DNA of 64,000 nt from Parcubacteria group bacterium Gr01-1014_38 (GTDB lineage: Bacteria > Patescibacteriota > Andersenbacteria > UBA10190 > CAIZMI01). The stretch spans positions 122,835-186,834 of the forward strand of contig VMFP01000001.1 in the NCBI GenBank assembly GCA_007376145.1, read 5' to 3'. The notes beneath the pieces were generated by a model. That model saw only the letters and a program-made list of their open reading frames with translations, was not told where the DNA came from and ran no database searches. A program made the translations under genes and the position numbers. Positions 13,154 to 42,791 of the stretch are shown here, piece after piece (within the stretch, counting starts at the first letter, position 1; every line of letters begins with the position of its first letter).

Positions 13154-14452
13154 ATGGGGTCCATCACACGCTCAATGCAGACGCCGCCAATACAGCCGGT
13201 CCCTCCACAGGAAGGAGGAGGAAAGAAGAAAAATCTTTTGATGCTCGTGGTTGTGGCCACGATGGTGGGGGTGGCTTCTGTGTTGTTTCTTCTCACCATT
13301 CGCATACAACAAGGGGATGGAGGACTTCCGGAGAGAACTTCCGAGGAAGTTGGGCAGCCATCAACGATGATGCCGCAGTCTCAAGTAATCCCCCCGCAGG
13401 CGACCGGACAGAGGACAAGAGTTATCTACGCAACGTACGAGGACCCAAACGTGAATATTTACTCTGCCCTGCCAGACGGCTCTGACCGGAAGATCGTAGT
13501 TTCCGAAAAGCCGCCGGCGTTCCAGTCCGGTCTCGAGGCCATGCTCCGGTTGAGGGTTTCGCCACGACGCGATCTCCTTGCCTACGCACTCTATCCCAGA
13601 GACACCATTTCAATTGTCAACACTACTGGTGAGCGCCTCCGTACCGTACGCGGCGATTTCCAGTCCTTTGGGTGGTCGCCTGATGGGGAAAACTTTCTGT
13701 ATAATCTACAGCTTCCGTCGTCTTCATCGGATACGGGGGGCGTATCTCTGCAAGGGCCTGCTCGAGAATGGTATCTTCTCAATGCGGGAACCGGAGAGGA
13801 AAGTCTCCTTGCTTCACGCGATGTTCACCGCGACGAGCTTATCGCATGGGCGGAACGCGAAAAAGTTTTGTTCGCCGATCACGTCCTGGGAAGTAAAAGC
13901 TATTACCTCTTTGACGTGAACAAGAAAGAATCATCTCCGCTGCCCAATGTTGAACAGTGGATGGACATGAGGAAAGTTTCTGTAAGCCCATCAGGTAGAC
14001 GGCGAGTACTATTTGCAGTACCCAGTCCCATCGGTCGTAGCGGCGGGTTGTGTGAATTTCTTGAGTTTGGAGAGGAATGGCAGTTCAAGCAACTCCTGTT
14101 TTCAGAGAGGTGCCAGTCGGGGAGCCTCTACGGCGATCTCGGGTGGAACGGAGACGACGAGTTGTTTTATACGGAAGCAACGACGGAGCCACCACAGGGG
14201 TTAAGTCTTGTCAACGACTCGATCAATAAATATGATTTTCGGACGAGACAGCGAAAGCCAGTTCTCTCGCGTGCAGGACGAGAAAGGTATCAGCTAGCGG
14301 GAGTGCTGGAAGGACAAGGGCTCCTCGTTTTGAAGAGGGTCATCGGGAACCCGGAGTACGTATTAGAGGTTCGCAGTTTTGATGGTCGTGAGCCCGTGAC
14401 TATTCATTCGAGTAATCAGGAGGGTATGATTGTTGATTGGGTGCGAGAATAG
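13154..14452 (+). CDS. hypothetical membrane-anchored TolB/PD40-like beta-propeller protein (432 aa)
   Basis: TM segment LLMLVVVATMVGVASVLFLL, then repeats containing SPDGE, SPSGRR and LPDGSDRK (PD40-like). More AT-rich than its neighbours by eye. Confidence 0.68.
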   Translation: MGSITRSMQTPPIQPVPPQEGGGKKKNLLMLVVVATMVGVASVLFLLTIRIQQGDGGLPERTSEEVGQPSTMMPQSQVIPPQATGQRTRVIYATYEDPNVNIYSALPDGSDRKIVVSEKPPAFQSGLEAMLRLRVSPRRDLLAYALYPRDTISIVNTTGERLRTVRGDFQSFGWSPDGENFLYNLQLPSSSSDTGGVSLQGPAREWYLLNAGTGEESLLASRDVHRDELIAWAEREKVLFADHVLGSKSYYLFDVNKKESSPLPNVEQWMDMRKVSVSPSGRRRVLFAVPSPIGRSGGLCEFLEFGEEWQFKQLLFSERCQSGSLYGDLGWNGDDELFYTEATTEPPQGLSLVNDSINKYDFRTRQRKPVLSRAGRERYQLAGVLEGQGLLVLKRVIGNPEYVLEVRSFDGREPVTIHSSNQEGMIVDWVRE

Positions 14453-22157: not shown

Positions 22158-22258
22158 CACGTGCCCGGCGCCCATGATAATTTCGTTTGCTGCTTCGTGT
22201 TGCTACTTCAGGGAAGTAGCGGGTGTCCTTTCACAATCTGAATCTGGAGGAACAAGCG

Positions 22259-23173
22259 ATGAGAAGATCCTTTCTAGAAAAGCTTGCTCGGTATTCCGAC
22301 GATTACTCTGCGGAGTGCCTCGTTCCCACCGGCAGCTTTTCGCAAGGCTGCTCAGTGGCCGATCACCGAAAAATGTGTGAGGAGTTTGATTACCACGTGT
22401 ATCCTCTTTCTTGGTTTGATGATGAGACTCCACAGCGACGGGTGTTCCTCTCCGCCTACTACATTGATCGCTACCCCATTACTAACGCGCAGTTTGCCCT
22501 TTTCGTTCTTGAGACTGGTTACGAGACAGTGGCTGAACAGTCGGAAGGTGGACTGGTGTTCACTCGGCGCGGGTGGGAGTGGGTAAGAGGTGCGTGCTGG
22601 TACAGACCGACGGGTCCGCGAAGTTCCGTCGGCAGGCGTCAGTATCACCCCGTTTGTCAGATTTCTTGGCGTGACGCTCATTCCTACGCCGCTTGGAGAA
22701 GTAAAAGGCTTCCAACGGAGTCTGAATGGGAAAAGGCCTGCCGAGGCACTGATGGAAGAAGATGGCCGTGGTCTAATGAGTGGAAACCAGGTGTTTGTGG
22801 CTCAGTAGAATATCACGCAAAAGCCAACTTTAACACTCGAGAGGAGTGGCGCAACTGGTGGGAATCAGTCTATCGGCCCCACCTTACTTTCACCAAGCCG
22901 GTTGGATCTTACCCTAGGTCAGTGTCTGTGTATGGCATCCACGACATGGTGGGCTGTTTGTACCAATGGGTAGAAGACTGGTATGGCCCCTACAGCAGGA
23001 AAGCTACGTATAGAGGAGAATACGGTTACTTTCTAGGAAGAAACACGCTGAAGGTTGTGCGTGGCGGATGCTGGATGAATTTTAAGTTCCAAGTCAGAAC
23101 GTGTGAACGCATGGCGTCAGCCCCGCTTGTCTCTACATTCGTGCACGGTTTCCGATGCGCTCGCACCGCGTAG
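22259..23173 (+). CDS. FGE-sulfatase (SUMF1/DUF323) domain protein
   Basis: YYIDRYPITNAQF, HPVCQISWRDAHSYAAWRSKRLPTESEWEKACRG, GIHDMVGCLYQWVEDWY, VVRGGCW...GFRCAR. The start is placed at ATG 22259 (GGAGG 8 nt upstream) rather than GTG 22223. Confidence 0.85.
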   Translation: MRRSFLEKLARYSDDYSAECLVPTGSFSQGCSVADHRKMCEEFDYHVYPLSWFDDETPQRRVFLSAYYIDRYPITNAQFALFVLETGYETVAEQSEGGLVFTRRGWEWVRGACWYRPTGPRSSVGRRQYHPVCQISWRDAHSYAAWRSKRLPTESEWEKACRGTDGRRWPWSNEWKPGVCGSVEYHAKANFNTREEWRNWWESVYRPHLTFTKPVGSYPRSVSVYGIHDMVGCLYQWVEDWYGPYSRKATYRGEYGYFLGRNTLKVVRGGCWMNFKFQVRTCERMASAPLVSTFVHGFRCARTA

Positions 23174-23281
23174 GACGGTTTGTGTTCGGTTTTACCGAGT
23201 CTCAGATTTATACACAATCGAGTCAGAAATCAGGCTGAGTCTTGGTGGCTCGGCGTAATGACAAAGAAAGAGAGGCATCCT

Positions 23282-24034
23282 ATGGACAGACCTAATGTAG
23301 GACTCGTTGTTACAGGTGGAAGTACCGGTATCGGTCGCAGCATTGCTCTCGAATATGCTGCAGCCTATCCAAAGTCGAGCGTTGTCCTTGTTGCACGGGA
23401 GAAAGGTAGGCTCACAAAGGTTAAAGGAGAGATTGAGAGGCGCGGATCAAGGTGTATTGTATATGCAGGCGACCTGCGTGACCCAGCATTCATTCAGGGT
23501 TTCATTAGGGACATAAGGCTTCGAGGTCTCTCGATAACCCATCTGGTGAATAATGTGGGGTCGTCGCGCGAAGGCTCAGGAATTCTGAGCGTCACCGGGG
23601 AGGAGTGGTACGCTTCACTTCAGCTGAACCTAAACGCCGCATTTTTCTGCGCTAAAGGCGTGGTCGAACTGATGCTAAGCAAGGGTTGGGAGGGGGCGAT
23701 TGTGAATGTAAGCGCAATTGCTGCCCGTATCGGAATGCCTAAAGTTGCATTCACAACAGCGAAAGCTGGGCTGATTGGAATGACACGGTCACTCGCTCGT
23801 GTATTAGCCGCTCATGGAATTCGAGTGAACGCAGTTCTCCCTGGAGCTATCGATACTCCCGCAACTCGACATTGGACAGAAAGACAACGCAAGGACATCT
23901 GCCGGAAGATTCCTCTCGCCCGCATCGGCAAGCCCGAGGAAGTGGCTTCGGTCGTGGTATTCCTGCTTTCAGAGAAAGCCTCGTACGTTACCGGCCAGAC
24001 CATTGACGTTAATGGTGGCTGGCACATGAAATGA
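23282..24034 (+). CDS. short-chain dehydrogenase/reductase (FabG-like) with FxxxK in place of YxxxK
   Basis: TGGSTGIG, NNVG, NVSAIAA, VAFTTAKAG, PGAIDTP. ATG 23282 has GAGG 6 nt upstream; ATG 23258 is an alternative. Confidence 0.87.
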   Translation: MDRPNVGLVVTGGSTGIGRSIALEYAAAYPKSSVVLVAREKGRLTKVKGEIERRGSRCIVYAGDLRDPAFIQGFIRDIRLRGLSITHLVNNVGSSREGSGILSVTGEEWYASLQLNLNAAFFCAKGVVELMLSKGWEGAIVNVSAIAARIGMPKVAFTTAKAGLIGMTRSLARVLAAHGIRVNAVLPGAIDTPATRHWTERQRKDICRKIPLARIGKPEEVASVVVFLLSEKASYVTGQTIDVNGGWHMK

Positions 24035-24050
24035 GGTTACTGATTATTCC

Positions 24051-24083
24051 GAGCGTATTCACGCGGTGGGTACGCTCTTTTCT
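24051..24083 (+). terminator. intrinsic terminator after the SDR gene
   Basis: GAGCGTA-ttcacgcggtggg-TACGCTC followed by TTTTCT. Confidence 0.68.
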
Positions 24084-24267
24084 GTGTCTGTACAAAGATG
24101 GATGATGTGGAATATGCTTTCGTGGCTTCGAAGAGATTCTGAGGCAACGGACCTAGTACCGCTTTCGTATCAGTAGTGCAAAAAAGTGCTTGAAAGACAG
24201 ATTCGTGACCTTTCACTGAAGCTTATGATTCAATGCCAACCACGAGATTCAAAAAGTCAACCAAGTA

Positions 24268-24765
24268 ATGTTTATCGTCTCTATGGGGAATAACGCGTTG
24301 GTAGAGTGTACAACTCTCTACGGGGATCGGAAGTTAGTGAAAGCAAGTGCACTGACGTTCCGCCCAGCGGCTTACGCACTTGTTTTGCGTGAAGGCAAGT
24401 TGTTGCTCGTAAATACGCGGAGTACAGGAAAGTGGTTCTTCCCGGGCGGCGCAATCGAGCGGGGGGAGACGATGAGAGATGGTATCCTGCGAGAGGTCCG
24501 GGAGGAAACCGGAGTCGAAATTGAAGTCAGGGAATTGTTTCAGTGTAAAGAGAGCTTTTTTTACTATGATCCTTGGGACGCCGCATACCATAGTTTCTCC
24601 TTCTTCTACACCGCCGTTCCAAAGACCTTTGAATTGACGGAAGCGTATAACGCAGAGGATAAGGAGGCGAAAAGTCCCGCGTGGGTAGACGTGAAACAAC
24701 TTAAAGCAAGCGATTTCCAGTTACTCGCGGGAGAAATATTTGAGGCATTCATTCGCACAACATAA
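24268..24765 (+). CDS. NUDIX hydrolase
   Basis: The Nudix box G-x5-E-x7-REUxEExGU is present as GGAIERGETMRDGILREVREETGV. Confidence 0.88.
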   Translation: MFIVSMGNNALVECTTLYGDRKLVKASALTFRPAAYALVLREGKLLLVNTRSTGKWFFPGGAIERGETMRDGILREVREETGVEIEVRELFQCKESFFYYDPWDAAYHSFSFFYTAVPKTFELTEAYNAEDKEAKSPAWVDVKQLKASDFQLLAGEIFEAFIRTT

Positions 24766-34302: not shown

Positions 34303-37212
34303 TTAGGGAAGCTCGGCATAGTCGCAAATCTTCCGGAAATCGCAAAAACGGCAGTGGTGTCCTGGCGTGGGACGGAAATCTCCACTCCGAATCCGCGCCG
34401 CGATGTCCTCAACCCGCTTCACCGTTTCCGCATCCTGTTCCGGCGTGCGGGTGGTTTCCTTCTCTTCCCCCGTTTCCACATACGCGAAGCGTAACCGCGC
34501 TGGTTCGAGCCCGAGCGCTTTCCGTGCCGCGAGGGCATAGATGGAGAGCTGCGTATCGCTCCTCGCGTCTTTTCCCTTCCCCTCCCCGGTTTTGAAATCG
34601 GTAATCAGGACTTTGCCGTGGTCTTTGGTCCGGTCAATCCGGTCAATGCGGCCGGTGACCCGCGTCGTTTCGAGGAGAAACGAAAACGGAATTTCCGCTG
34701 CCAGCGGCGGAACCATCAGGAGTTCCGGGTGTGCAGAGAGGTATGTCTGGAGTGCCGCGCGCCCTGCCTCTTTCCGCGCCGCTTCGTGCTCCGGACTTTC
34801 ATAGCCCTCGGAGATCCAGTGTTGTTCGAACCACGTGAGCACCTCGAGGAGAGAAGGCTTGTGCCCTGAAGCAATCGCCGTTCCGACGCGGTGCAACACC
34901 GCGTGGATCGTGTTGCCAAACGCAAGCGTGTGTTGCGGCCTGGTTGGGACGCGGAGCACGTAATGGAACTCGTACTTTAAGGGACAGGTTTCGTACTCGG
35001 CAATTTTTGAGGCGCTCAAACTGAGCGCACCATCCACGATCCGCTCCGGCGGGGTTGCCACGCGCAGCGGAAGGGAGAGCTGTTCGCTCGGCGACTTTGG
35101 TTCGCCGGTCACGGTGACAGAGGGAATCTGCGCTTCCGCGATGAAGGGCGAGGGTTTCCGGTGCGTCTTGGATCCCGCTGCCATCGTCGACGACGTGACG
35201 ATGAAGCGCTCTTGCGCGCGCGTCATCGCGACGTAGAAAAGGCGGCGCTCTTCGAGGACGTGCATGGTCCGTTCATCCAGGGTCCCCTGGAGCGCGCTGG
35301 CCGGGACAAGCTCCGACGGAAGCTCGAGCAGCCGCCGCCTCCCGCGCGCCGGGTAGCGATCGGCGGTCGCACCAATGACGAAGACAATCGGAAATTCCAA
35401 TCCTTTCGCCGCGTGGACGGTCAGGAGATGCACGGCGTCGGCCTCTGGCGGGAGGTCGGCGGCCGGCGGGCCCTGACCGCTGTCGGAAGCCGCGTCGAGG
35501 AGTTCAAGGAACTCGAGAAAATTCCCGTCAGGCATACCTTGTTCCAGCGCTCGGATGTAGGCGAGAAACGCCTGGAGGTTCGGCAGCACTTCTGGGTGTC
35601 CTTCGCTCTCCTGAATCGCGTGCTTCAAGATGCCGCTGTGTTCGAGAAATTCCAGGTAAACGGTGGACGGGCGGAGCGTCCGGAACGCCGTGAGGTGCCG
35701 CTCGAGGAGTGCGACGAGGCGCGCGAGTCCGTCCCTGCTTGACGTCGCCAGGGTTGCCGACGTCGTCGGCCGCTTCAAGAACGGAAGGACGGCGTCGGGG
35801 TTCTGCCGGAGCTCGCTCAAGAGGCGTGCCCGGTCGGAAGTGCTCACTCCGAGCGCTGGATGCGTGATGAGACGAAACAGCGCGCTGGCGTCGCGCGGAT
35901 CCCCGAGGAGGCGCAGGTATGCCAGAGCATCCTTAACTTCCGGTCGGGCGAGGAGACCGCGCGCTTCGGACACCGTGTGGGGGATGTCACGTCGGAGAAG
36001 CGAGGAAGCGAGATCGCCCGCTTGCGCATTCGTGCGGGCGAGCACCGCCATCTCGCGGTAGGCTTTCCCCTCGTCCACGAGGCGGAGAATCTCCTCCGCC
36101 ACCCACGCGAACTCTTCCTCTTCGGTGGCGAAGTGCCGGTGCTCCACGAGCACTCCCGGCGGTGCAGAGCCTTGACGAACCAAGCGCTTGCTGATGTCTG
36201 CGGTCGCCTCCAGACGGTACGGGTTATTCTGCTGGATGAGTCGGTAGGCGGCGTCTAAGAGTACTTGCGGCGAACGGAAGTTGTCCGTGAGGACCATGAG
36301 TGATGTCTTGGGAAACCGCTCGCGGAACTGGAGGACATTCCCGACGTTAGAGCCGCGGAAGGCAAAGATCGCCTGGTCGTCGTCCGAAGCGACGAAGAGG
36401 TTTCCGGCGGGCCCGGCCAGCAATTCCAGAAGGTGCAACTGCGTCGCATTCGTGTCTTGGAATTCGTCGACGAGGATCTCCGTGAATCGTCCGCGGTACT
36501 TCTGCGCAATCGCCGGGCGCTCCTGGAAGACGCGGATGGTTTCGAGGAGGAGATCGCCGAAGTCGAAGACGCCCTTCTCGCGCTGCAGGGCGACATACGC
36601 GTGGTACACGGCGGCGAGTTCCCGCCAGTGCGCGGAATCTTCCGCGTCCACGCTCGCAACGGTTTCCGCGTGGCGTTCCAGCATCTCGGGCGTGGTCCCC
36701 TGGTCTTTGGCTTGGTTGAAGAATTCGACGAGCGCTTGGACGAATTTGGTCGGGTTGCCTAAGGGGCGGTACCGCGACAGCGGCAAGGAGAAGAGGTTTC
36801 GCTTGAGGAGAAGCCAGGCCTCGGGGGAAGAGAGGATGCGGAATCGAGGGTCGAGACCGATCGCGAATGCTTCTTCGCGCAGGACATATTCCCCGAACCC
36901 GTGGAAGGTTCCGACCCACGGGCGGAAGGCGCTGATGGGGAGCGCGAGGTCGGTTCTCGCCTCGAGTTCGGCAGAGGCCTTTTCGGTGAACGTGAGCGCG
37001 AGGATATTCTGCGGGGGGACGCTTTGGTGGTTCGTGAGCCAGGCGATCCGCTCCACGAGGACCCGTGTTTTGCCGGTTCCCGCTCCGGCGAGCACGAGCG
37101 CTGGTCCCTCGCCGTGCGTGACTGCCGCGCGCTGGGCATCCGTGAGATGCGAGAATTCGCTTGCCTCGGTGCGTTCCTGCGTCCGTGTTCGTGCACGTTG
37201 CTTCCTCGCCAT
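34303..37212 (-). CDS. UvrD/PcrA-type SF1 helicase fused to a C-terminal PD-(D/E)XK, Cas4/AddB-like Fe-S nuclease domain
   Basis: Walker A AGAGTGKT, ILVDEFQDTN, VHAAKGLEFP. C-terminus has CPLKYEF..., GRIDRID...VLITDFKTG (D..DxK), QLSIYALA (QxxxY) and HHCRFCDFRKIC. ATG 37212 (GTG 37218 is also possible). Confidence 0.92.
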   Translation of the reverse strand: MARKQRARTRTQERTEASEFSHLTDAQRAAVTHGEGPALVLAGAGTGKTRVLVERIAWLTNHQSVPPQNILALTFTEKASAELEARTDLALPISAFRPWVGTFHGFGEYVLREEAFAIGLDPRFRILSSPEAWLLLKRNLFSLPLSRYRPLGNPTKFVQALVEFFNQAKDQGTTPEMLERHAETVASVDAEDSAHWRELAAVYHAYVALQREKGVFDFGDLLLETIRVFQERPAIAQKYRGRFTEILVDEFQDTNATQLHLLELLAGPAGNLFVASDDDQAIFAFRGSNVGNVLQFRERFPKTSLMVLTDNFRSPQVLLDAAYRLIQQNNPYRLEATADISKRLVRQGSAPPGVLVEHRHFATEEEEFAWVAEEILRLVDEGKAYREMAVLARTNAQAGDLASSLLRRDIPHTVSEARGLLARPEVKDALAYLRLLGDPRDASALFRLITHPALGVSTSDRARLLSELRQNPDAVLPFLKRPTTSATLATSSRDGLARLVALLERHLTAFRTLRPSTVYLEFLEHSGILKHAIQESEGHPEVLPNLQAFLAYIRALEQGMPDGNFLEFLELLDAASDSGQGPPAADLPPEADAVHLLTVHAAKGLEFPIVFVIGATADRYPARGRRRLLELPSELVPASALQGTLDERTMHVLEERRLFYVAMTRAQERFIVTSSTMAAGSKTHRKPSPFIAEAQIPSVTVTGEPKSPSEQLSLPLRVATPPERIVDGALSLSASKIAEYETCPLKYEFHYVLRVPTRPQHTLAFGNTIHAVLHRVGTAIASGHKPSLLEVLTWFEQHWISEGYESPEHEAARKEAGRAALQTYLSAHPELLMVPPLAAEIPFSFLLETTRVTGRIDRIDRTKDHGKVLITDFKTGEGKGKDARSDTQLSIYALAARKALGLEPARLRFAYVETGEEKETTRTPEQDAETVKRVEDIAARIRSGDFRPTPGHHCRFCDFRKICDYAELP

Positions 37213-37412
37213 ATCCACTAGCCAGTATACGGCGTTTCCCTACCTTTCTTGACAAGGTGCCAGCGGCATGCGACACTCTCCCTTACGAGGGAAACGTTCC
37301 TCATCAGCAGACGTGCATAGACTATTCGCGTATACCAATCGTGAGGGGTCGAGCGTCAGCGAGAGCGAAAGCCAACCTCGGTCTCTTCACGAAAGGCGGT
37401 GACTACTTCTTT

Positions 37413-37706
37413 ATGAACCAGGATTCTGGTGAGCGTCAGATGTTTGACGCCACGTGTTCGAATTGCAACCAACCCACCCAGGTGCCGTTCCAGCCGACGG
37501 GTGAACGTCCGGTCTACTGCAGCAACTGTTTCCGGCAGGTCCGCGGCGAGCGTCGCGGGCCGGGAGGGGGTGGACAGGGTGGCGATCGGCCAATGTACGA
37601 CGCGACGTGCTCCACCTGCGGCAAGCCGACCCAAGTGCCCTTCCGTCCCACGGAAGGTCGCCCGGTCTACTGCCGCGAGCATTATCGAGGCCCAAGCCGC
37701 GCGTAA
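37413..37706 (+). CDS. small protein with two tandem CxxC-x17-CxxC zinc-ribbon repeats (97 aa)
   Basis: ATG 37413. MFDATCSNCNQPTQVPFQPTGERPVYCSNCF and MYDATCSTCGKPTQVPFRPTEGRPVYCREHY are separated by a Gly-rich linker. The ORF-track N-terminal extension (from 37161) overlaps the helicase start. Confidence 0.8.
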   Translation: MNQDSGERQMFDATCSNCNQPTQVPFQPTGERPVYCSNCFRQVRGERRGPGGGGQGGDRPMYDATCSTCGKPTQVPFRPTEGRPVYCREHYRGPSRA

Positions 37707-39149: not shown

Positions 39150-39617
39150 TTACCGAATGCCGATCAAGCGTGCAAGATCCTGCCAGCCGCTTCCCCGCTC
39201 TTCCGACCGGAGGTTCTCGAGCGTGAGCGGCCGTACGATACGGATCGGAGCGGAGCCGCCTTCGGGTCGGTACGGATCCAGGTTCAGGAGGTGGCGGTCG
39301 TTGGTAATCACCGCATCTGCTTTTCCCTCCACCGCAGCCGCGAGGACCTTGTCGTCCTCGGGGTCATCCTGAACGACGTGGGGCACCGTCGCCGGGTGAA
39401 CCGTTTCCGCCGCAGCGAGAAACGCGCGAATCTGTTCCTCGTGCCCACGGACGTTCACGGTCTTGGAAAGGATTTCCTCGTACTCACCCCGCAGCGCCGG
39501 GCTCACGATCGCGGTGAGCTCTTCCCGCATACAGGCCTCCACAATCTTCCACGAGGCGGAGAGTTCATCATACGCGCTGCTCACGAGCACGTTGGTGTCC
39601 AGGACAACCCGTTTCAT
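39150..39617 (-). CDS. PIN-domain toxin (155 aa)
   Basis: MKRVVLDTNVLVSS..., ...DDKVLAAAVEGKADAVITNDRHL carries the PIN acidic residues (D in VLDTN, E, D in ITND). Confidence 0.88.
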   Translation of the reverse strand: MKRVVLDTNVLVSSAYDELSASWKIVEACMREELTAIVSPALRGEYEEILSKTVNVRGHEEQIRAFLAAAETVHPATVPHVVQDDPEDDKVLAAAVEGKADAVITNDRHLLNLDPYRPEGGSAPIRIVRPLTLENLRSEERGSGWQDLARLIGIR

Positions 39618-39621
39618 GCCA
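39524..39621. repeat. 98-nt segment (PIN 5' end) duplicated at 42538..42635
   Basis: Manual alignment: 90 of 98 positions are identical to 42538..42635. 6 of the 8 differences are synonymous third positions. Confidence 0.9.
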
Positions 39622-39883
39622 TGGAAAATTTCCCTTCAACAACTTCCTTCGTCAGTGCTTCGATGACGCGCGGCATGTCGGTGTCGGGAATTGTACCATC
39701 CGTGGACAGCGCATCCGCTTCCGCGAATGCCAAAGTACCCGTGGGAGCGAATCTCCGTGTCGGGATGAGGAACGCGCGGTTCGGCATCGTGACGGGTCCG
39801 GCGGACGCCGATAGCCAGGACATGGCTGTATCTCCACGCAGTCTCGGGAAGAACAAAGCACCAACGCATTCCACGATTTCCAC
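39614..39883 (-). CDS. candidate antitoxin upstream of the PIN toxin (start uncertain)
   Basis: ATGA overlap with the PIN start. The C-terminus ..DMPRVIEALTKEVVEGKFSMA weakly resembles the small ORF upstream of the truncated PIN copy. No recognisable fold motif. Internal Met codons give 20-57 aa alternatives. Confidence 0.42.
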   Translation of the reverse strand: MEIVECVGALFFPRLRGDTAMSWLSASAGPVTMPNRAFLIPTRRFAPTGTLAFAEADALSTDGTIPDTDMPRVIEALTKEVVEGKFSMA

Positions 39884-39973
39884 CCATCCTAACCTCGCCG
39901 CCGGGCTGCTTCAAGGAAAAAGAGACGAGAAAAAAGGCGAGCATCCGTACGGTCGGTACACAGATCACAGTCA

Positions 39974-40010
39974 CAAAAAAGCCCCGCGACAGTATACGTG
40001 TCAACGGGGC
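39974..40010 (-). terminator. intrinsic terminator after the lipoprotein / exoprotein cassette
   Basis: Minus strand: GCCCCG-ttgacacgtatactgtcg-CGGGGC followed by TTTTTTG. Confidence 0.62.
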
Positions 40011-40087
40011 ACTAAAGTGCAGTTTTACCATAGAAACATCATGCTCGTGGAAGAAAGTTCGCCAACCCATGCAAGTGTCCTTCACCG

Positions 40088-40528
40088 CTAATCAAACTTC
40101 TCCTTCAGAATCTCCACGGGCCTGCCTTCGTGTTTCGAGACGACCTCGTTGATTTTCTGGTAGAAGGCATCCGATTCCAAGTACAGCATCCCCCACTCGG
40201 TGGCCAGGTTGGTTGGCTCCGGGGAGAACTTTGCTTTGAAGCGCTTTTCCTCGGCAGGGAAGAAGAACCATACCACGGCGACGTCAGGAAAGGCAGGATG
40301 CACATCCTTCCATGTCTCCCTCACCTTCACCGTCGAGATGATGTCTTTCACCTGCTTGGGATCGGAGATGACCAGGGATTTCGGTTGCTGGTTGATGTGA
40401 TAGTCGATCTTGAGCTTGTTCGCCTGTCGTAGATCGGGTAGTTCCGGCTTCTTAAGACAGCCGGGGACCAAGAACAGAGCGAACAATGAACCAATCGCCA
40501 GGGAACCTCGTGGTAAACTACATGCCAT
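40088..40528 (-). CDS. probable lipoprotein, 146 aa, unknown function
   Basis: ATG 40528 with a strong AAAGGAGG SD. The signal ends in FLVPGC (lipobox-like Cys). More AT-rich than the genome by eye. Confidence 0.7.
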   Translation of the reverse strand: MACSLPRGSLAIGSLFALFLVPGCLKKPELPDLRQANKLKIDYHINQQPKSLVISDPKQVKDIISTVKVRETWKDVHPAFPDVAVVWFFFPAEEKRFKAKFSPEPTNLATEWGMLYLESDAFYQKINEVVSKHEGRPVEILKEKFD

Positions 40529-40549
40529 AGAGACCTCCTTTTACTTGGT

Positions 40550-42427
40550 TTAGTCGGGTCTTCCGTTCGTGCTGACGCGCAGTCGGGCACCGCGAGGGAC
40601 TCCGACCCAGCCAGCGTGACCACGATCCGGCGCGATACTATAGACACACTCGGTATACCCTCGCACCTTCGCCGTGACCGTCGCGTTGCTCAGGAGCATG
40701 GACAGAAGATGCAAGTAATTGTCTGGACGATCGATGCCGGACGAAATATGACAACCCATCAGGCTGAGTGTATCAATCTTGCCGCGCAGGAGTTCGCCAA
40801 ACGCCGAAGCCTCATGGAGCGGGTTCTGCCGAAGACAACGATTTTCGCCTGCTCGGTTACACAGCCTGTTGCCAGCACCGACATGCTGCGCATCGGCACT
40901 GCCATGTCCATAGATCCACACATGTAACGGGCTGCCGCGGTAGTAGTCACGCACCGTCTGGATGGCAGCGGGGATGGAGGCAACAAGCATTGTATAACTA
41001 GCAAGCCGGCGGGATCTCATAATCGCAAGATCAGTGTCGTGAGTGGCGTCCCGATACTCTGGAGGTGGGTTTTCGATCAGGATCAGCGTGGTATTGGCCG
41101 CAGTTGGGTGTACAGCCGCAACGAATTTTTCCGTCTGGCCTTGGCCTTGTCCCGCATCAGCCGGCGGGCTGGCAACATTGATGAAGAAGGTGCGCGTTTC
41201 GCCTCCCCTAAACGCGACCTGCACCCCATACACGCCTGGCCGACGAGCCAGAAAGTATACTTCAGAACAGTTCTCTGCCTCGTAACAATCACCGTCGGGA
41301 TCGTCGGGATGACGGTTCAAGCGAAAGAAGCCATCGTAGTCCCAATCCGGGTCCGTGATGGACTGTTGAGCGCGGTATGGGTCGCTCTCCCCCCGAGGAT
41401 CAGGTGCCACGATCCGCAGCTCTTCCATCCTTTGGGGATACGATTCGTAGTACCATCCCCCCTCGCCCATGAAAGCCATCGGGTGCTCGGCCAGCTCTGG
41501 CCCTTCCCAGCTCGTGTCCGCGTCAGTGTCGTATAGCGTCACCGTTCGATCATAGACGAGCCCGTTGTACGCCGGATCCTCACTGACCGTTGTGTGTCGA
41601 AGGGTGCCGGTGTGTATGAACGGCTCATTACGGAAGTCTCTGCATCCCCTGACGACGATCTCCTCACTGCCCTGCCACCAAGAGGCGTCGAAGAACAACC
41701 AGCTCTCACTCGGACAGACCTGATTGTCTGGCGATGTAATGAAAACCTCGACATTGGCGCTGGGCTGGCTGGTCAGTCCGACGTCATACACATTCCGAGG
41801 CCACCAGCTGTCAGGATCTCCTTCCTCACTGAATGACTCCGGCGCCTGGACACCGGTCGGATGGCGAGGAGTGATAACGAGGCCAGCCTCGCTAGCTCCT
41901 GTGCTGCCACTGGATGCGCTGACTGCCCCAGTGAGAGCCGTCACCGTATTATTCCAGTGGATTGCCAAGAGGAGCACAGATGCATACGTGCCTCCGCTAG
42001 AAGCTTCCAGCGCCGGTGTCGCGGCACCCCAGTGGCTACCACCGTTATCCAGGGTAGAGGCAGCGGGTGCAATGGCACGGGAGGGAGTACGAGCGACAGA
42101 AAGCCATGCTTCGCCGAAATCTCCGAAATCGCTGTTGACCGAAGGAAGCGATGGCTCATCGTCTACACTTTGAGCTGCTGGCCGGTCCTGGCTTTGCCGT
42201 GGCGGTTCCTCCGGGAAAAGTGACCACCATTTCTCATCCCGAGCCTCATCCTGCTGGTCTGCACCAGCGATACTGATTTCCATCGGCTCCTCAGTCAGCA
42301 AGCGAATCTGATCGGCTGTATGTGCTGCCCCGAAATCAGGCAGTGCAAGTGCAAGCAGATCGCCAGGTGGCAGGCGATCTTCCAGGGCTTCAACCCGGAA
42401 TACGGTACGTCTTTTGCCTTTGAGCAT
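40550..42427 (-). CDS. large secreted-type protein (625 aa) with an LEDR-type N-terminus, an adhesin-like middle and a C-terminal His/Cys domain
   Basis: ATG 42427 with a GAAAGGAG SD. N-terminus MLKGKRRTVFRVEALEDRLPPGDLL. Middle segment SQPSANVEVFITSPDNQV...WWQGSEEIVVRG...HTGTLRHTTVSEDPAYNG...VTLYDTD. C-terminus LHVWIYGHGSADAQHVG...LSLMGCHISSG. Confidence 0.75.
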   Translation of the reverse strand: MLKGKRRTVFRVEALEDRLPPGDLLALALPDFGAAHTADQIRLLTEEPMEISIAGADQQDEARDEKWWSLFPEEPPRQSQDRPAAQSVDDEPSLPSVNSDFGDFGEAWLSVARTPSRAIAPAASTLDNGGSHWGAATPALEASSGGTYASVLLLAIHWNNTVTALTGAVSASSGSTGASEAGLVITPRHPTGVQAPESFSEEGDPDSWWPRNVYDVGLTSQPSANVEVFITSPDNQVCPSESWLFFDASWWQGSEEIVVRGCRDFRNEPFIHTGTLRHTTVSEDPAYNGLVYDRTVTLYDTDADTSWEGPELAEHPMAFMGEGGWYYESYPQRMEELRIVAPDPRGESDPYRAQQSITDPDWDYDGFFRLNRHPDDPDGDCYEAENCSEVYFLARRPGVYGVQVAFRGGETRTFFINVASPPADAGQGQGQTEKFVAAVHPTAANTTLILIENPPPEYRDATHDTDLAIMRSRRLASYTMLVASIPAAIQTVRDYYRGSPLHVWIYGHGSADAQHVGAGNRLCNRAGENRCLRQNPLHEASAFGELLRGKIDTLSLMGCHISSGIDRPDNYLHLLSMLLSNATVTAKVRGYTECVYSIAPDRGHAGWVGVPRGARLRVSTNGRPD

Positions 42428-42492
42428 GCGAGTGCTCCTTTCAAAAAGAAAGAAAATTGTCTAAAGAGCTGGAAAAATACTACACGAAGCGA

Positions 42493-42521
42493 AATATAGA
42501 GAAAAAGAGGGCAACTGTCAA
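42493..42521 (-). promoter_or_regulatory. sigma70-type promoter of the 625-aa gene
   Basis: Minus strand: TTGACA (42521..42516), a 17-nt spacer, then TATATT (42498..42493). The TGA that ends the truncated PIN copy lies inside this -35 hexamer. Confidence 0.6.
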
Positions 42522-42631
42522 GCCTCCGGTCTCTCTCCCCGCATGCAGGCCCCCACAATCTTCCACGAGGCGGAGAGTTCATCATACGCGCTGCTCACCA
42601 GCACGTTCGTGTCGAGTACCACCCGGTTCAT
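42518..42631 (-). pseudogene. truncated PIN toxin paralog (37 codons)
   Basis: MNRVVLDTNVLVSSAYDELSASWKIVGACMRGERPEA-stop. The first ~31 codons match the intact PIN gene at 39617, then homology ends abruptly at 42538. A 34-codon antitoxin-like ORF (42628..42732) overlaps its ATG by ATGA. Confidence 0.72.
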
Positions 42632-42635
42632 GCCA
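42538..42635. repeat. second copy of the 98-nt PIN 5' segment
   Basis: See 39524..39621. Confidence 0.9.
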
Positions 42636-42791
42636 CCGCGAACTCCTCTTCAACAAGTACGCCTTCGCGAACTACCACTGGTTTGTCGGCGCACTCCTTG
42701 CCTTCGGTGCCGCGGTGGGAATGGCGGAGCATGCCGCCGGGTCGGCCAGCTCCGCTCCGGCAGCCTCGTCTCTCGCGACATCACATCAAGG

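What the first reader, a model, noticed from the sequence alone, without database searches (positions are those of the whole stretch)
40550..42427. 625-aa exoprotein with a planctomycete-style LEDR N-terminus and a C-terminal His/Cys domain, partnered with a lipoprotein
The N-terminus MLKGKRRTVFRVEALEDRLPPGDLL resembles the basic stretch plus L-E-x-R-x-L motif that begins many secreted proteins of Planctomycetes and allies. This is from my memory of that family pattern, and it is not seen on any other protein in this window. The middle contains an adhesin-like unit of the type (..SQPSANVEVFITS...WWQGSEEIVVRG...HTGTLRHTTVSEDPAYNG..VTLYDTD). The C-terminus has ..LHVWIYGHGS...(50 aa)...LSLMGCHISSG, reminiscent of DUF4347 or CHAT/caspase-like His-Cys dyads. 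Together with the downstream lipoprotein (22-nt gap), it may form a surface or effector pair acquired from another phylum.
Basis: partly seen in the sequence, partly recalled or inferred. Interest (0 to 1): 0.45.

Follow-up and report, generated by a model that had tools for sequence, protein, structure and literature searches.

The report
Planctomycete-style surface protein in a Parcubacterium
A tiny groundwater bacterium (Parcubacteria) has a two-gene cassette: a probable exported surface protein whose start looks like a Planctomycetes export tag and which holds one adhesin-type module, plus a small probable lipoprotein partner; the suggested protease-like end could not be confirmed.

Summary
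ORF 40550-42427(-) encodes a 625-aa protein, followed 21 nt later by a 146-aa lipoprotein-like ORF. The window is Parcubacteria group bacterium Gr01-1014_38.

- **N-terminus:** KGKRR..FRVEALEDRLPP fits the published Planctomycetes cell-surface export motif (RRLxxExLExRxLLA / LxLExLExRxxP). The same ExLExR start is enriched at the N-termini of other proteins carrying the same repeat (4 seen, 0.08 expected).
- **Residues 210-305:** one copy of a ~96-aa beta-sandwich repeat found up to 53 times in giant proteins (E = 6e-32). No Pfam model covers it.
- **C-terminal domain (434-625):** His508-Gly and Gly-Cys559 are conserved in the only ortholog. There is no Pfam, PDB or database homolog. Comparison with DUF4347 puts the motifs in register but is not significant. 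AlphaFold failed (pLDDT 28-35). The catalytic dyad is therefore untested, and Cys559 could equally form a disulfide.
- **Distribution:** the gene pair is seen in only three closely related groundwater assemblies.
- **Context:** the 3-kb cassette has its own near-consensus promoter, diverges faster than its flanks, and here is bracketed by 124-nt direct repeats of the PIN gene's 5' end. Composition is near-native and no donor was found.

Verdict: a lineage-restricted exported surface protein with a partner. It is a new variant of a known kind and moderately interesting.

The parts
40550..42427 (-). Gene for the 625-aa modular exoprotein candidate (NCBI: hypothetical protein G01um101438_188)
   Evidence: ORF. 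100% match to P0001. One ortholog, P0002, at 68% identity in a syntenic position. dN/dS 0.56.
42365..42421 (-). Residues 3-21, KGKRRTVFRVEALEDRLPP: a basic stretch followed by an ExLExR..P motif of the Planctomycetes cell-surface export type
   Evidence: Fits LxLExLExRxxP and RRLxxExLExRxLLA as given in PMC8567305. Residues 12-31 are almost invariant in the ortholog. Unique in the window. The motif is enriched at the N-termini of proteins bearing the same repeat. No classical hydrophobic signal region.
41801..42322 (-). Residues 36-209: acidic region (pI 4.2) rich in Pro/Ser/Gly/Ala/Thr and Trp; probably a linker, possibly with a degenerate extra repeat at about 145-205
   Evidence: Composition. 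Some giant-protein alignments extend back to residues 112-164, but the repeat HMM finds no second copy.
41513..41800 (-). Residues 210-305: a single copy of a ~96-aa beta-sandwich (Calx-beta/Ig-like) repeat of giant extracellular proteins
   Evidence: 574 representative proteins hit at E<=1e-3, and the best stretch of all 149 listed hits other than the query itself lies within query residues 112-343. An HMM built from 764 repeat instances hits residues 210-305 at E=5.9e-32. Pfam gives only sub-threshold fn3_6, Calx-beta and LapA matches.
41129..41512 (-). Residues 306-433: acidic beta-rich module of unknown family, the most conserved part of the protein (omega 0.42)
   Evidence: No homolog detected.
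41330..41347 (-). Residues 361-366, DWDYDG: a DxDxDG calcium-binding-type loop, conserved as DGDYDG in the ortholog
   Evidence: The function is inferred from the motif only.
40553..41128 (-). Residues 434-625: basic (pI 9.2) orphan C-terminal domain, probably alpha/beta, with conserved His508-Gly509 (40904-40906) and Gly558-Cys559 (40751-40753)
   Evidence: Conservation. No Pfam, NCBIfam, PDB or database homolog. DUF4347 comparison inconclusive. Alternating strand/helix pattern comes only from low-confidence models.
40088..40528 (-). Gene for the 146-aa partner, a probable lipoprotein (signal peptide ending LVPG-C24)
   Evidence: ORF. Strong Shine-Dalgarno sequence and 21-nt gap. Only three family members among 5.8 billion proteins. 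Linked to the exoprotein's C-terminus in L001-L003 and L008. dN/dS 0.20. Hydrophobic core AIGSLFALFLV.
42493..42521 (-). Near-consensus sigma-70-type promoter (TTGACA, 17 nt, TATATT) upstream of the operon
   Evidence: 11 of 12 matches. The -35 hexamer TTGACA is conserved in the sister locus and the -10 region differs.
42533..42656 (-). Truncated copy of the 5' end of the PIN gene (upstream direct repeat), directly abutting the cassette
   Evidence: family D1: 124 nt, 87% identical to 39519-39642. Alignment. Absent from sister locus L001.
39519..39642 (-). Downstream direct repeat: the 5' end of the intact PIN_3 toxin gene (39150-39617) plus 25 nt upstream of it
   Evidence: PIN_3 assignment.

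Best explanation
A two-gene operon, restricted to one narrow Parcubacteria clade, encodes an exported cell-surface protein and a membrane-anchored lipoprotein partner.

**Shown**
- The 625-aa protein starts with a basic stretch and an ExLExR..P motif of the type described as the Planctomycetes cell-surface export signal.
- It contains one true copy of a beta-sandwich repeat that builds giant extracellular proteins.
- It has a conserved DxDxDG loop and eight conserved cysteines that lie close together in pairs.
- It ends in a basic orphan domain with conserved His-Gly and Gly-Cys motifs.
- It is co-transcribed, from its own near-consensus promoter, with a small gene that has a signal peptide and a conserved Cys.

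**Inferred**
- The N-terminal motif directs export.
- The acidic linker, the beta-sandwich and the probable calcium-binding module form a short stalk.
- The lipoprotein holds, matures or regulates the protein at the membrane surface.
- The C-terminal domain is the functional head. Most likely it is a thiol-dependent hydrolase with the His-then-Cys residue order seen in clan CD peptidases and DUF4347. I give that last step only about 25-30%.
- The cassette probably entered this lineage by insertion next to a PIN toxin gene, and it evolves fast, as surface proteins do.
For: - Gene structure and ribosome-binding sites. Promoter.
- Motif match to the literature consensus, and the association of that signal with Calx-beta, cadherin and TSP3-type proteins.
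- Motif conserved in the ortholog while its neighbourhood diverges.
- Motif unique in the window.
- Motif enriched at the N-termini of proteins with the same repeat (4 observed, 0.08 expected).
- Repeat homology: 574 hits, and HMM E=5.9e-32 over the full repeat length.
- No transmembrane segment, acidic body with a basic head, all 8 of 8 Cys conserved, DxDxDG conserved.
- Gene pair conserved in three independent assemblies of related genomes.
- Purifying but relaxed selection (omega 0.56 against 0.10-0.23 for the flanking genes), and cassette DNA 80% identical against 89-95% for the flanks.
- 124-nt direct repeats bracket the cassette.
Against: - Export has not been demonstrated. The motif has no hydrophobic core, and its export route is unknown even in Planctomycetes.
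- Pfam PF07595 did not fire on the query. It also did not fire on typical-looking control N-termini, so that test says nothing.
- The lipobox has Pro at position -2 in two of three orthologs, which is atypical.
- The C-terminal domain has no detectable homolog and no usable structure model. Cys559 may simply pair with Cys594 in a disulfide.
- With only two full-length sequences, conservation of His508 and Cys559 is weak evidence.
- Composition is near-native (GC3 z-scores -1.1 and +0.3), so foreign origin is not shown. The sister genome lacks the upstream repeat.
Confidence: 0.5

Rival explanations
1. Purely structural adhesin or binding protein. The C-terminal domain is a disulfide-stabilised binding head. 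His508 and Cys559 are not a catalytic pair, and the resemblance to DUF4347/CHAT is coincidental.
For: - All eight Cys are conserved and lie close together in pairs (238/262, 381/387, 523/531, 559/594), as expected for four disulfides in an extracellular protein.
- There is no statistical similarity to any Cys-peptidase family or to DUF4347.
- His560, next to the Cys, is not conserved.
Against: - The local patterns (hydrophobic strand, then His-Gly; about 50 residues later, hydrophobic strand, then Gly-Cys) match the clan CD and DUF4347 layout, and hhalign places them in register.
- Three repeat-bearing giant proteins in the hit list do carry genuine DUF4347 domains, so the two kinds of module do co-occur.
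Confidence: 0.3
2. Polymorphic toxin and immunity pair. An exported protein carries a C-terminal toxin domain, and the lipoprotein encoded immediately downstream is its immunity protein. The pair would be used against competitors or the host cell.
For: - The architecture fits: N-terminal trafficking motif, repeat region, distinct basic C-terminal domain, and a small gene 21 nt downstream.
- The partner is more conserved than the large protein (omega 0.20 against 0.56).
- The cassette looks inserted next to a toxin-antitoxin-type PIN gene.
Against: - The C-terminal domain matches no known toxin family.
- Divergence is about even along the protein (omega 0.42-0.59 across the modules from residue 36 onward; the 35-codon N-terminus gives about 1.0 from very few sites), rather than concentrated in a swapped C-terminus.
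- There are no orphan toxin or immunity cassettes downstream.
- No dedicated secretion system genes are adjacent.
Confidence: 0.12
3. Decaying remnant of a horizontally acquired fragment of a giant adhesin gene that no longer has a function in this genome.
For: - Near-orphan distribution.
- Raised dN/dS of 0.56.
- A single repeat copy where relatives have dozens.
- The flanking direct repeat includes a PIN pseudogene fragment.
Against: - Both ORFs are intact in independent assemblies of diverged genomes (dS about 0.36-0.43), and omega is well below 1.
- Shine-Dalgarno sites and the -35 promoter hexamer are conserved.
- The start motif, all the Cys and the C-terminal tail are conserved.
Confidence: 0.05

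Closest known systems
Planctomycetes cell-surface proteins with the N-terminal RRLxxExLExRxLLA / LxLExLExRxxP export motif (Studholme et al. 2004, Pfam PF07595; Tuwongella immobilis set in PMC8567305)
   Same: A basic stretch followed by ExLExR(..P) within the first 21 residues. The motif sits on a protein made of Calx-beta-like beta-sandwich and calcium-binding-type modules. There is no classical hydrophobic signal core. Four other proteins carrying the same repeat have the same kind of start.
   Different: The host is a Parcubacterium (CPR), not a Planctomycete. The protein is small (625 aa, one repeat), not giant. After the Arg it reads LPPGDLL rather than xLLA/S. The Pfam model gave no score, for the controls either.
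Giant extracellular repeat proteins built from the ~96-aa 'TYTVVLTSQPTADVTVT...ITHT..S.DP.YNG....V.V.DND' beta-sandwich repeat (Calx-beta-like; not covered by Pfam)
   Same: Residues 210-305 align over the full repeat length with E=5.9e-32 and keep the hallmark SQP, W, HTGT..HT..S.DP.YNG and D.D positions.
   Different: Relatives carry up to 53 tandem copies and reach 7,937 aa, whereas this protein has one copy. The query copy has two lineage-specific Cys (238 and 262). Most relatives have ordinary Sec signal peptides.
DUF4347 (PF14252), and the CHAT and caspase-like clan CD cysteine peptidases
   Same: The order and local context of the candidate residues: hydrophobic strand then His-Gly, about 50 residues, hydrophobic strand then Gly-Cys, then a helix. 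hhalign puts both motifs in register with DUF4347. DUF4347 co-occurs with the same repeat in three hits.
   Different: No significant sequence similarity by Pfam, BLASTP, HMM or hhalign. The domain is C-terminal here, whereas DUF4347 lies within the N-terminal ~230 residues of the three hit proteins that carry it. The fold was not obtained.
Polymorphic toxin systems (exported multidomain toxin followed by an immunity gene)
   Same: The gene order and the overall N-terminal-signal / repeat / C-terminal-domain layout.
   Different: No recognised toxin or immunity family, no C-terminal cassette swapping, and no associated secretion genes.

Membership tests
Planctomycetes N-terminal cell-surface export motif (PF07595; RRLxxExLExRxLLA / LxLExLExRxxP) | Consensus residues present near the extreme N-terminus after a basic stretch | tested here: met
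   K3,K5,R6,R7 are followed by F10-R-V-E-A-L-E-D-R-L-P-P21. This matches every specified position of LxLExLExRxxP, with F and V in place of the first two L. Residues 12-31 are conserved in the ortholog.
Planctomycetes N-terminal cell-surface export motif (PF07595; RRLxxExLExRxLLA / LxLExLExRxxP) | Score against the Pfam model | tested here: inconclusive
   No hit at E<=10 for the query. Three typical-looking control N-termini (ELLEDRTLLS and similar) also gave no hit, so the test has no power here.
Planctomycetes N-terminal cell-surface export motif (PF07595; RRLxxExLExRxLLA / LxLExLExRxxP) | Carried by proteins made of extracellular modules (Calx-beta, cadherin, TSP3, Ig-like) | tested here: met
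   Beta-sandwich repeat at E=5.9e-32 and a DxDxDG loop. Association described in the literature. Enrichment of the motif in repeat-bearing proteins.
Planctomycetes N-terminal cell-surface export motif (PF07595; RRLxxExLExRxLLA / LxLExLExRxxP) | Directs export to the cell surface | not testable with these tools
   Needs localisation experiments. The export route is unknown even in Planctomycetes.
~96-aa beta-sandwich repeat of giant extracellular proteins (unnamed, Calx-beta-like) | Significant full-length profile match to the repeat | tested here: met
   HMM positions 2-97 of 98 align to residues 210-305, 96.8 bits, E=5.9e-32. 574 representative proteins at E<=1e-3.
~96-aa beta-sandwich repeat of giant extracellular proteins (unnamed, Calx-beta-like) | Tandem array of copies | tested here: not met
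   Only one copy is detected, even with HMMER filters off and E<=10.
Calx-beta (PF03160) | Pfam score above the gathering threshold | tested here: not met
   No hit for the query. The repeat consensus reaches only 13.6 bits against a cut-off of 27.
DUF4347 (PF14252) | Pfam score above the gathering threshold | tested here: not met
   No hit at E<=10 on the isolated C-terminal domain, whereas genuine DUF4347 domains from hits score 147-195 bits.
DUF4347 (PF14252) | Profile-profile similarity with the invariant His and Cys in register | tested here: inconclusive
   hhalign aligns HG and GC in register, but with probability 0.8% and P=0.07. A DUF4347 HMM built from three sequences scores about 0 bits, and 1.7% of shuffles do as well. 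BLASTP finds nothing.
CHAT / caspase-like clan CD cysteine peptidases | His-Gly and Cys, each after a hydrophobic strand, about 30-60 residues apart | tested here: met
   LHVWIYG-H508-G and TLSLMG-C559 are 51 residues apart, and both are conserved in the ortholog. This is a pattern only, and it is also compatible with other folds.
CHAT / caspase-like clan CD cysteine peptidases | Caspase-haemoglobinase fold, or sequence membership | tested here: inconclusive
   No Pfam or PDB sequence hit. AlphaFold pLDDT was 28 and 35. Foldseek on that model gave no match at E<=0.001.
Bacterial lipoprotein (146-aa partner) | Signal peptide with a hydrophobic core, followed by a lipobox Cys | tested here: inconclusive
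   The core AIGSLFALFLV and the Cys are conserved in three orthologs. Position -2 is Pro in two of the three (VPG-C and VPS-C, against VLG-C), which is outside the usual lipobox.
Bacterial lipoprotein (146-aa partner) | Lgt and LspA present in the genome | not tested
   Only the 64-kb window was available.
Polymorphic toxin-immunity system | C-terminal domain belongs to a toxin family, and C-termini vary between otherwise conserved homologs | tested here: not met
   No toxin or defence family hit. Divergence is about even along the protein.

The most novel reading that the evidence does not exclude
A CPR/Parcubacteria lineage has taken up, and kept under selection, a surface protein bearing the export tag thought to be specific to Planctomycetes. 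That would mean the tag is read by machinery that CPR bacteria also possess (or by the general Sec pathway), not by a Planctomycetes-only system. In the same reading, the protein's orphan C-terminal domain founds a new His/Cys hydrolase family, distantly related to DUF4347, that works with a dedicated lipoprotein at the symbiont's surface.
Probability: 0.15. Interest if true: 0.6.

Novelty: new variant of a known kind. Interest (0 to 1): 0.36.

Why it matters
How the Planctomycetes ExLExR export motif works is still unknown, and it has been treated as phylum-specific. A conserved copy in a minimal-genome Parcubacterium, on a small 625-aa protein, would be a much simpler system than 4,000-10,000-aa planctomycetal proteins for asking which machinery reads the tag. 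Surface proteins of CPR bacteria are also prime candidates for host attachment. The orphan C-terminal domain and its dedicated partner may be a lineage-specific interaction module. That said, nearly everything beyond the sequence features is inference, and the family has only two or three known members.

Tried and rejected
- **Family libraries.** Pfam, NCBIfam, PADLOC and PHROGs gave nothing meaningful for the whole 625-aa protein, its sub-domains or the partner. The only hit was a weak 22-residue PHROG match for the partner.
- **PF07595 on the N-terminus.** No score, and none for the control N-termini either, so the test is uninformative.
- **Homolog searches for the C-terminal domain.**
  - The word-indexed search with the two-sequence alignment returned nothing. 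It did not even return the query's own cluster, so that negative is unreliable.
  - The exhaustive representative search lists only its best 150 of 574 hits. Apart from the query itself, all of those fall on the repeat, so weaker C-terminal hits could be hidden.
  - A PDB profile search at E<=10 gave none.
  - An IMG/VR scan gave none.
  - tblastn against plasmids gave one E=0.6 hit. It lies antisense within a putA-like ORF and was rejected as noise.
- **Structure.** The full-length model had pLDDT 28 and the C-terminal model 35. Foldseek against PDB on the latter gave only TM-scores around 0.15 (DNA polymerase beta and similar), which is meaningless.
- **Looking for relatives that lack the cassette.** The genome scan with the RnfD-like neighbour found only distant Chloroflexota-type loci. 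The metagenome scan re-found the known sister contig.
- **Taxon names for the repeat hits.** Only Thermoleophilia and Microcoleaceae carried taxon names, so no donor can be inferred.
- **Other signal types, rejected by reading the sequence.** Tat signal: RRTVFR is off-register and there is no hydrophobic region. Prepilin site: none. LPXTG: none.
- **Sortase and L,D-transpeptidase readings of the His...Cys pair.** Considered and set aside because of the spacing and the predicted helices. They are not formally excluded.
- **RNA.** An Rfam and tRNA scan found nothing at the locus.
Full report
**1. The observation.**
The window comes from Parcubacteria group bacterium Gr01-1014_38. The 625-aa product is 100% identical to 'hypothetical protein G01um101438_188'. 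ORF 40550..42427(-) is as described. It starts at the first in-frame ATG, 7 nt after AAAGGAG. It is followed after 21 nt (not 22) by a 146-aa ORF that has its own AAGGAGG. A near-consensus sigma-70-type promoter (TTGACA, 17 nt, TATATT; 11 of 12 matches) lies at 42521-42493(-). The simple scan found no terminator-like site between the two genes. It flagged one weak stem inside the 625-aa coding sequence (40766-40752), no more than shuffled sequence gives.

**2. Distribution.**
Among 5.8 billion protein clusters the large protein has one relative, P0002 (626 aa, 68% identity). P0002 lies on contigs with the same gene order: RnfD-like, 626 aa, 146 aa, PIN_3. The flanking genes are 89-95% identical in DNA to the window, while the cassette is only 80% identical. 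P0002 therefore belongs to a sister genome, not another phylum.

The 146-aa protein has three family members in all. The third lies on an 803-nt Hainich groundwater contig. That contig also encodes the last 23 residues of a third copy of the large protein (...ARLRVSTNGRPD*) directly upstream. The pairing is thus conserved wherever the genes are seen.

dN/dS between the window and the sister genome:

| Gene | dN/dS |
|---|---|
| 625-aa protein | 0.56 |
| 146-aa partner | 0.20 |
| Flanking genes | 0.10-0.23 |

Both are real genes under selection, and the large one evolves fast.

**3. N-terminus.**
PMC8567305 reports the consensus RRLxxExLExRxLLA, from Studholme et al. 2004 (Pfam PF07595). [quoted passage not shown] The same paper reports a Tuwongella variant, LxLExLExRxxP, on 52 proteins, including 8 of the 10 longest in that genome. 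PMC3343278 notes that this signal sits on proteins with Calx-beta, cadherin and TSP3 domains.

- **Fit.** The query reads K3-G-K-R-R7 ... F10-R-V-E-A-L-E-D-R-L-P-P21. This fits every specified position of the Tuwongella variant.
- **Conservation.** Residues 12-31 are nearly invariant in the ortholog, while the next 170 residues diverge.
- **Uniqueness.** The extended pattern occurs once in six-frame translation of the whole window.
- **Independent check.** Among 127 M-starting proteins that share the middle repeat, ExLExR occurs four times in the first 90 residues (0.08 expected, p about 1e-6). Each time it follows a basic stretch. It occurs only twice in about 300,000 other positions.
- **What the N-terminus lacks.** There is no classical hydrophobic signal core and no transmembrane segment.
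- **Pfam.** PF07595 gave no score, but it gave none for the control N-termini either.

I conclude that the motif is real and of the published type. Its export function here is inferred.

**4. Middle region.**
The exhaustive HMMER search found 574 representative proteins at E<=1e-3, and 51 at E<=1e-30. Apart from the query itself, the best stretches of all those listed fall in query residues about 112-343, with a core at 210-305. Targets reach 7,937 aa and contain up to 53 matched stretches. An HMM built from 764 instances matches residues 210-305 end to end (96.8 bits, E=5.9e-32) and finds only that one copy.

The repeat consensus gets only sub-threshold fn3_6, Calx-beta and LapA scores in Pfam and has no PDB sequence match. 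It is a widespread beta-sandwich repeat that has no family model. The few named carriers are from Thermoleophilia and Microcoleaceae, so the repeat is not specific to Planctomycetes.

Residues 306-433 have no detectable relative. They contain a conserved DxDxDG loop at 361-366.

**5. C-terminal domain (434-625).**
It is basic (pI 9.2), whereas the rest of the protein from residue 36 is acidic (pI 4.2-4.3). His508-Gly and Gly-Cys559 are conserved in the ortholog.

| Test | Result |
|---|---|
| Pfam and NCBIfam on the isolated domain, E<=10 | nothing |
| PDB profile search, E<=10 | nothing |
| BLASTP against a verified DUF4347 domain from hit P0146 | nothing |
| hhalign against three verified DUF4347 domains | HG and GC in register, but probability 0.8%, P=0.07 |
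| HMM of those three domains | about 0 bits; 1.7% of shuffles do as well |
| AlphaFold2 with the two-sequence alignment | pLDDT 28 (full length), 35 (domain) |
| Foldseek on the domain model | meaningless |

The dyad hypothesis is neither supported nor refuted. One rival is specific. All eight Cys are conserved and lie close together in pairs, including 559 with 594. Cys559 may therefore be structural.

**6. Context.**
The cassette runs from about 39643 to 42532. In this genome it is bracketed by a 124-nt direct repeat (87% identity). One copy is the 5' end of the intact PIN_3 gene at 39519-39642. The other is a truncated copy at 42533-42656 that directly abuts the promoter. This is the arrangement a Campbell-type single crossover would leave.

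The sister locus lacks the upstream copy. The fragment's reading frame (MNRVV...GACMRGE) matches the sister's PIN allele better than the window's own allele.

GC3 is 0.60 for the large gene (z = -1.1) and 0.71 for the partner (z = +0.3). Any transfer is therefore old, or came from a donor of similar composition. Scans for relatives without the cassette found none.

**7. Verdict.**
The best account is a lineage-restricted operon for an exported surface protein. That protein has a Planctomycetes-type start motif, one giant-adhesin-type beta-sandwich, a probable calcium-binding module and an orphan basic head domain. It comes with a membrane-anchored partner. A catalytic role for the His/Cys pair, and acquisition from another phylum, remain hypotheses.

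It is a new variant of a known kind. The main point of interest is that an export tag regarded as specific to Planctomycetes is conserved in a CPR bacterium.

Noticed in passing
window 39519-39642 and 42533-42656: A 124-nt direct repeat (87% identity) brackets the 3,014-bp cassette. It consists of the 5' end of the PIN_3 toxin gene plus about 25 nt upstream. The upstream copy is a truncated PIN pseudogene (MNRVVLDTNVLVSSAYDELSASWKIVGACMRGE...) whose sequence matches the sister genome's PIN allele better than the window's own. It is absent from sister locus L001. This looks like the scar of a single-crossover integration or of a local duplication.
   Followed up: partly
window 40553-40600 and intergenic 40529-40549; L001 about 2870-2935; L008 about 35-96: The last ~40 nt of the large gene and the intergenic Shine-Dalgarno region are almost invariant, including at synonymous sites, across three genomes whose cassette DNA is otherwise about 80% identical. 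The encoded tail ARLRVSTNGRPD is identical in all three. RNAalifold draws a hairpin (about 40557-40621) but finds no covarying pairs. This could be a C-terminal sorting tail, a translational-coupling element or recent recombination.
   Followed up: partly
window 39614-39883 (-): An 89-aa ORF overlaps the PIN start by 4 nt (ATGA), the position expected for an antitoxin. It has no Pfam, PADLOC or PHROG hit, and this ~260-nt stretch is not conserved in the sister locus, even though the PIN gene itself is 92% identical.
   Followed up: partly
window 22223-24765 (+): A run of three genes with low GC3 (0.49-0.55, z from -1.7 to -2.5): an FGE-sulfatase-like protein, a short-chain dehydrogenase and a NUDIX hydrolase. 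In composition this is the most foreign-looking stretch of the window, more so than the cassette under study.
   Followed up: partly
window 13154-14452 (+): A 432-aa ORF with low GC (0.53; GC3 z = -1.7) and no Pfam hit.
   Followed up: no
window 40550-42427 (-), residues 238/262, 381/387, 523/531, 559/594: All eight cysteines are conserved in the 68%-identical ortholog and lie close together in pairs. Cys238 and Cys262 sit inside the beta-sandwich repeat at positions where the family consensus has no Cys. This suggests lineage-specific disulfides.
   Followed up: partly
hits P0146, P0060, P0149 (representative search): Three giant proteins that carry the same beta-sandwich repeat carry a verified or near-identical DUF4347 domain within their first ~230 residues. 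The two kinds of module do therefore co-occur elsewhere, although DUF4347 membership of the query's C-terminus is unproven.
   Followed up: yes
tool behaviour: The word-indexed homolog search with the two-sequence C-terminal alignment returned no hit at all, not even the two proteins the alignment was made from. Its negative result should not be relied on.
   Followed up: no
window 37161-37706 (+): A protein with two treble-clef zinc-finger motifs (zf_Tbcl_2). Its annotated ORF start overlaps the upstream helicase gene, so the true start is probably internal.
   Followed up: no
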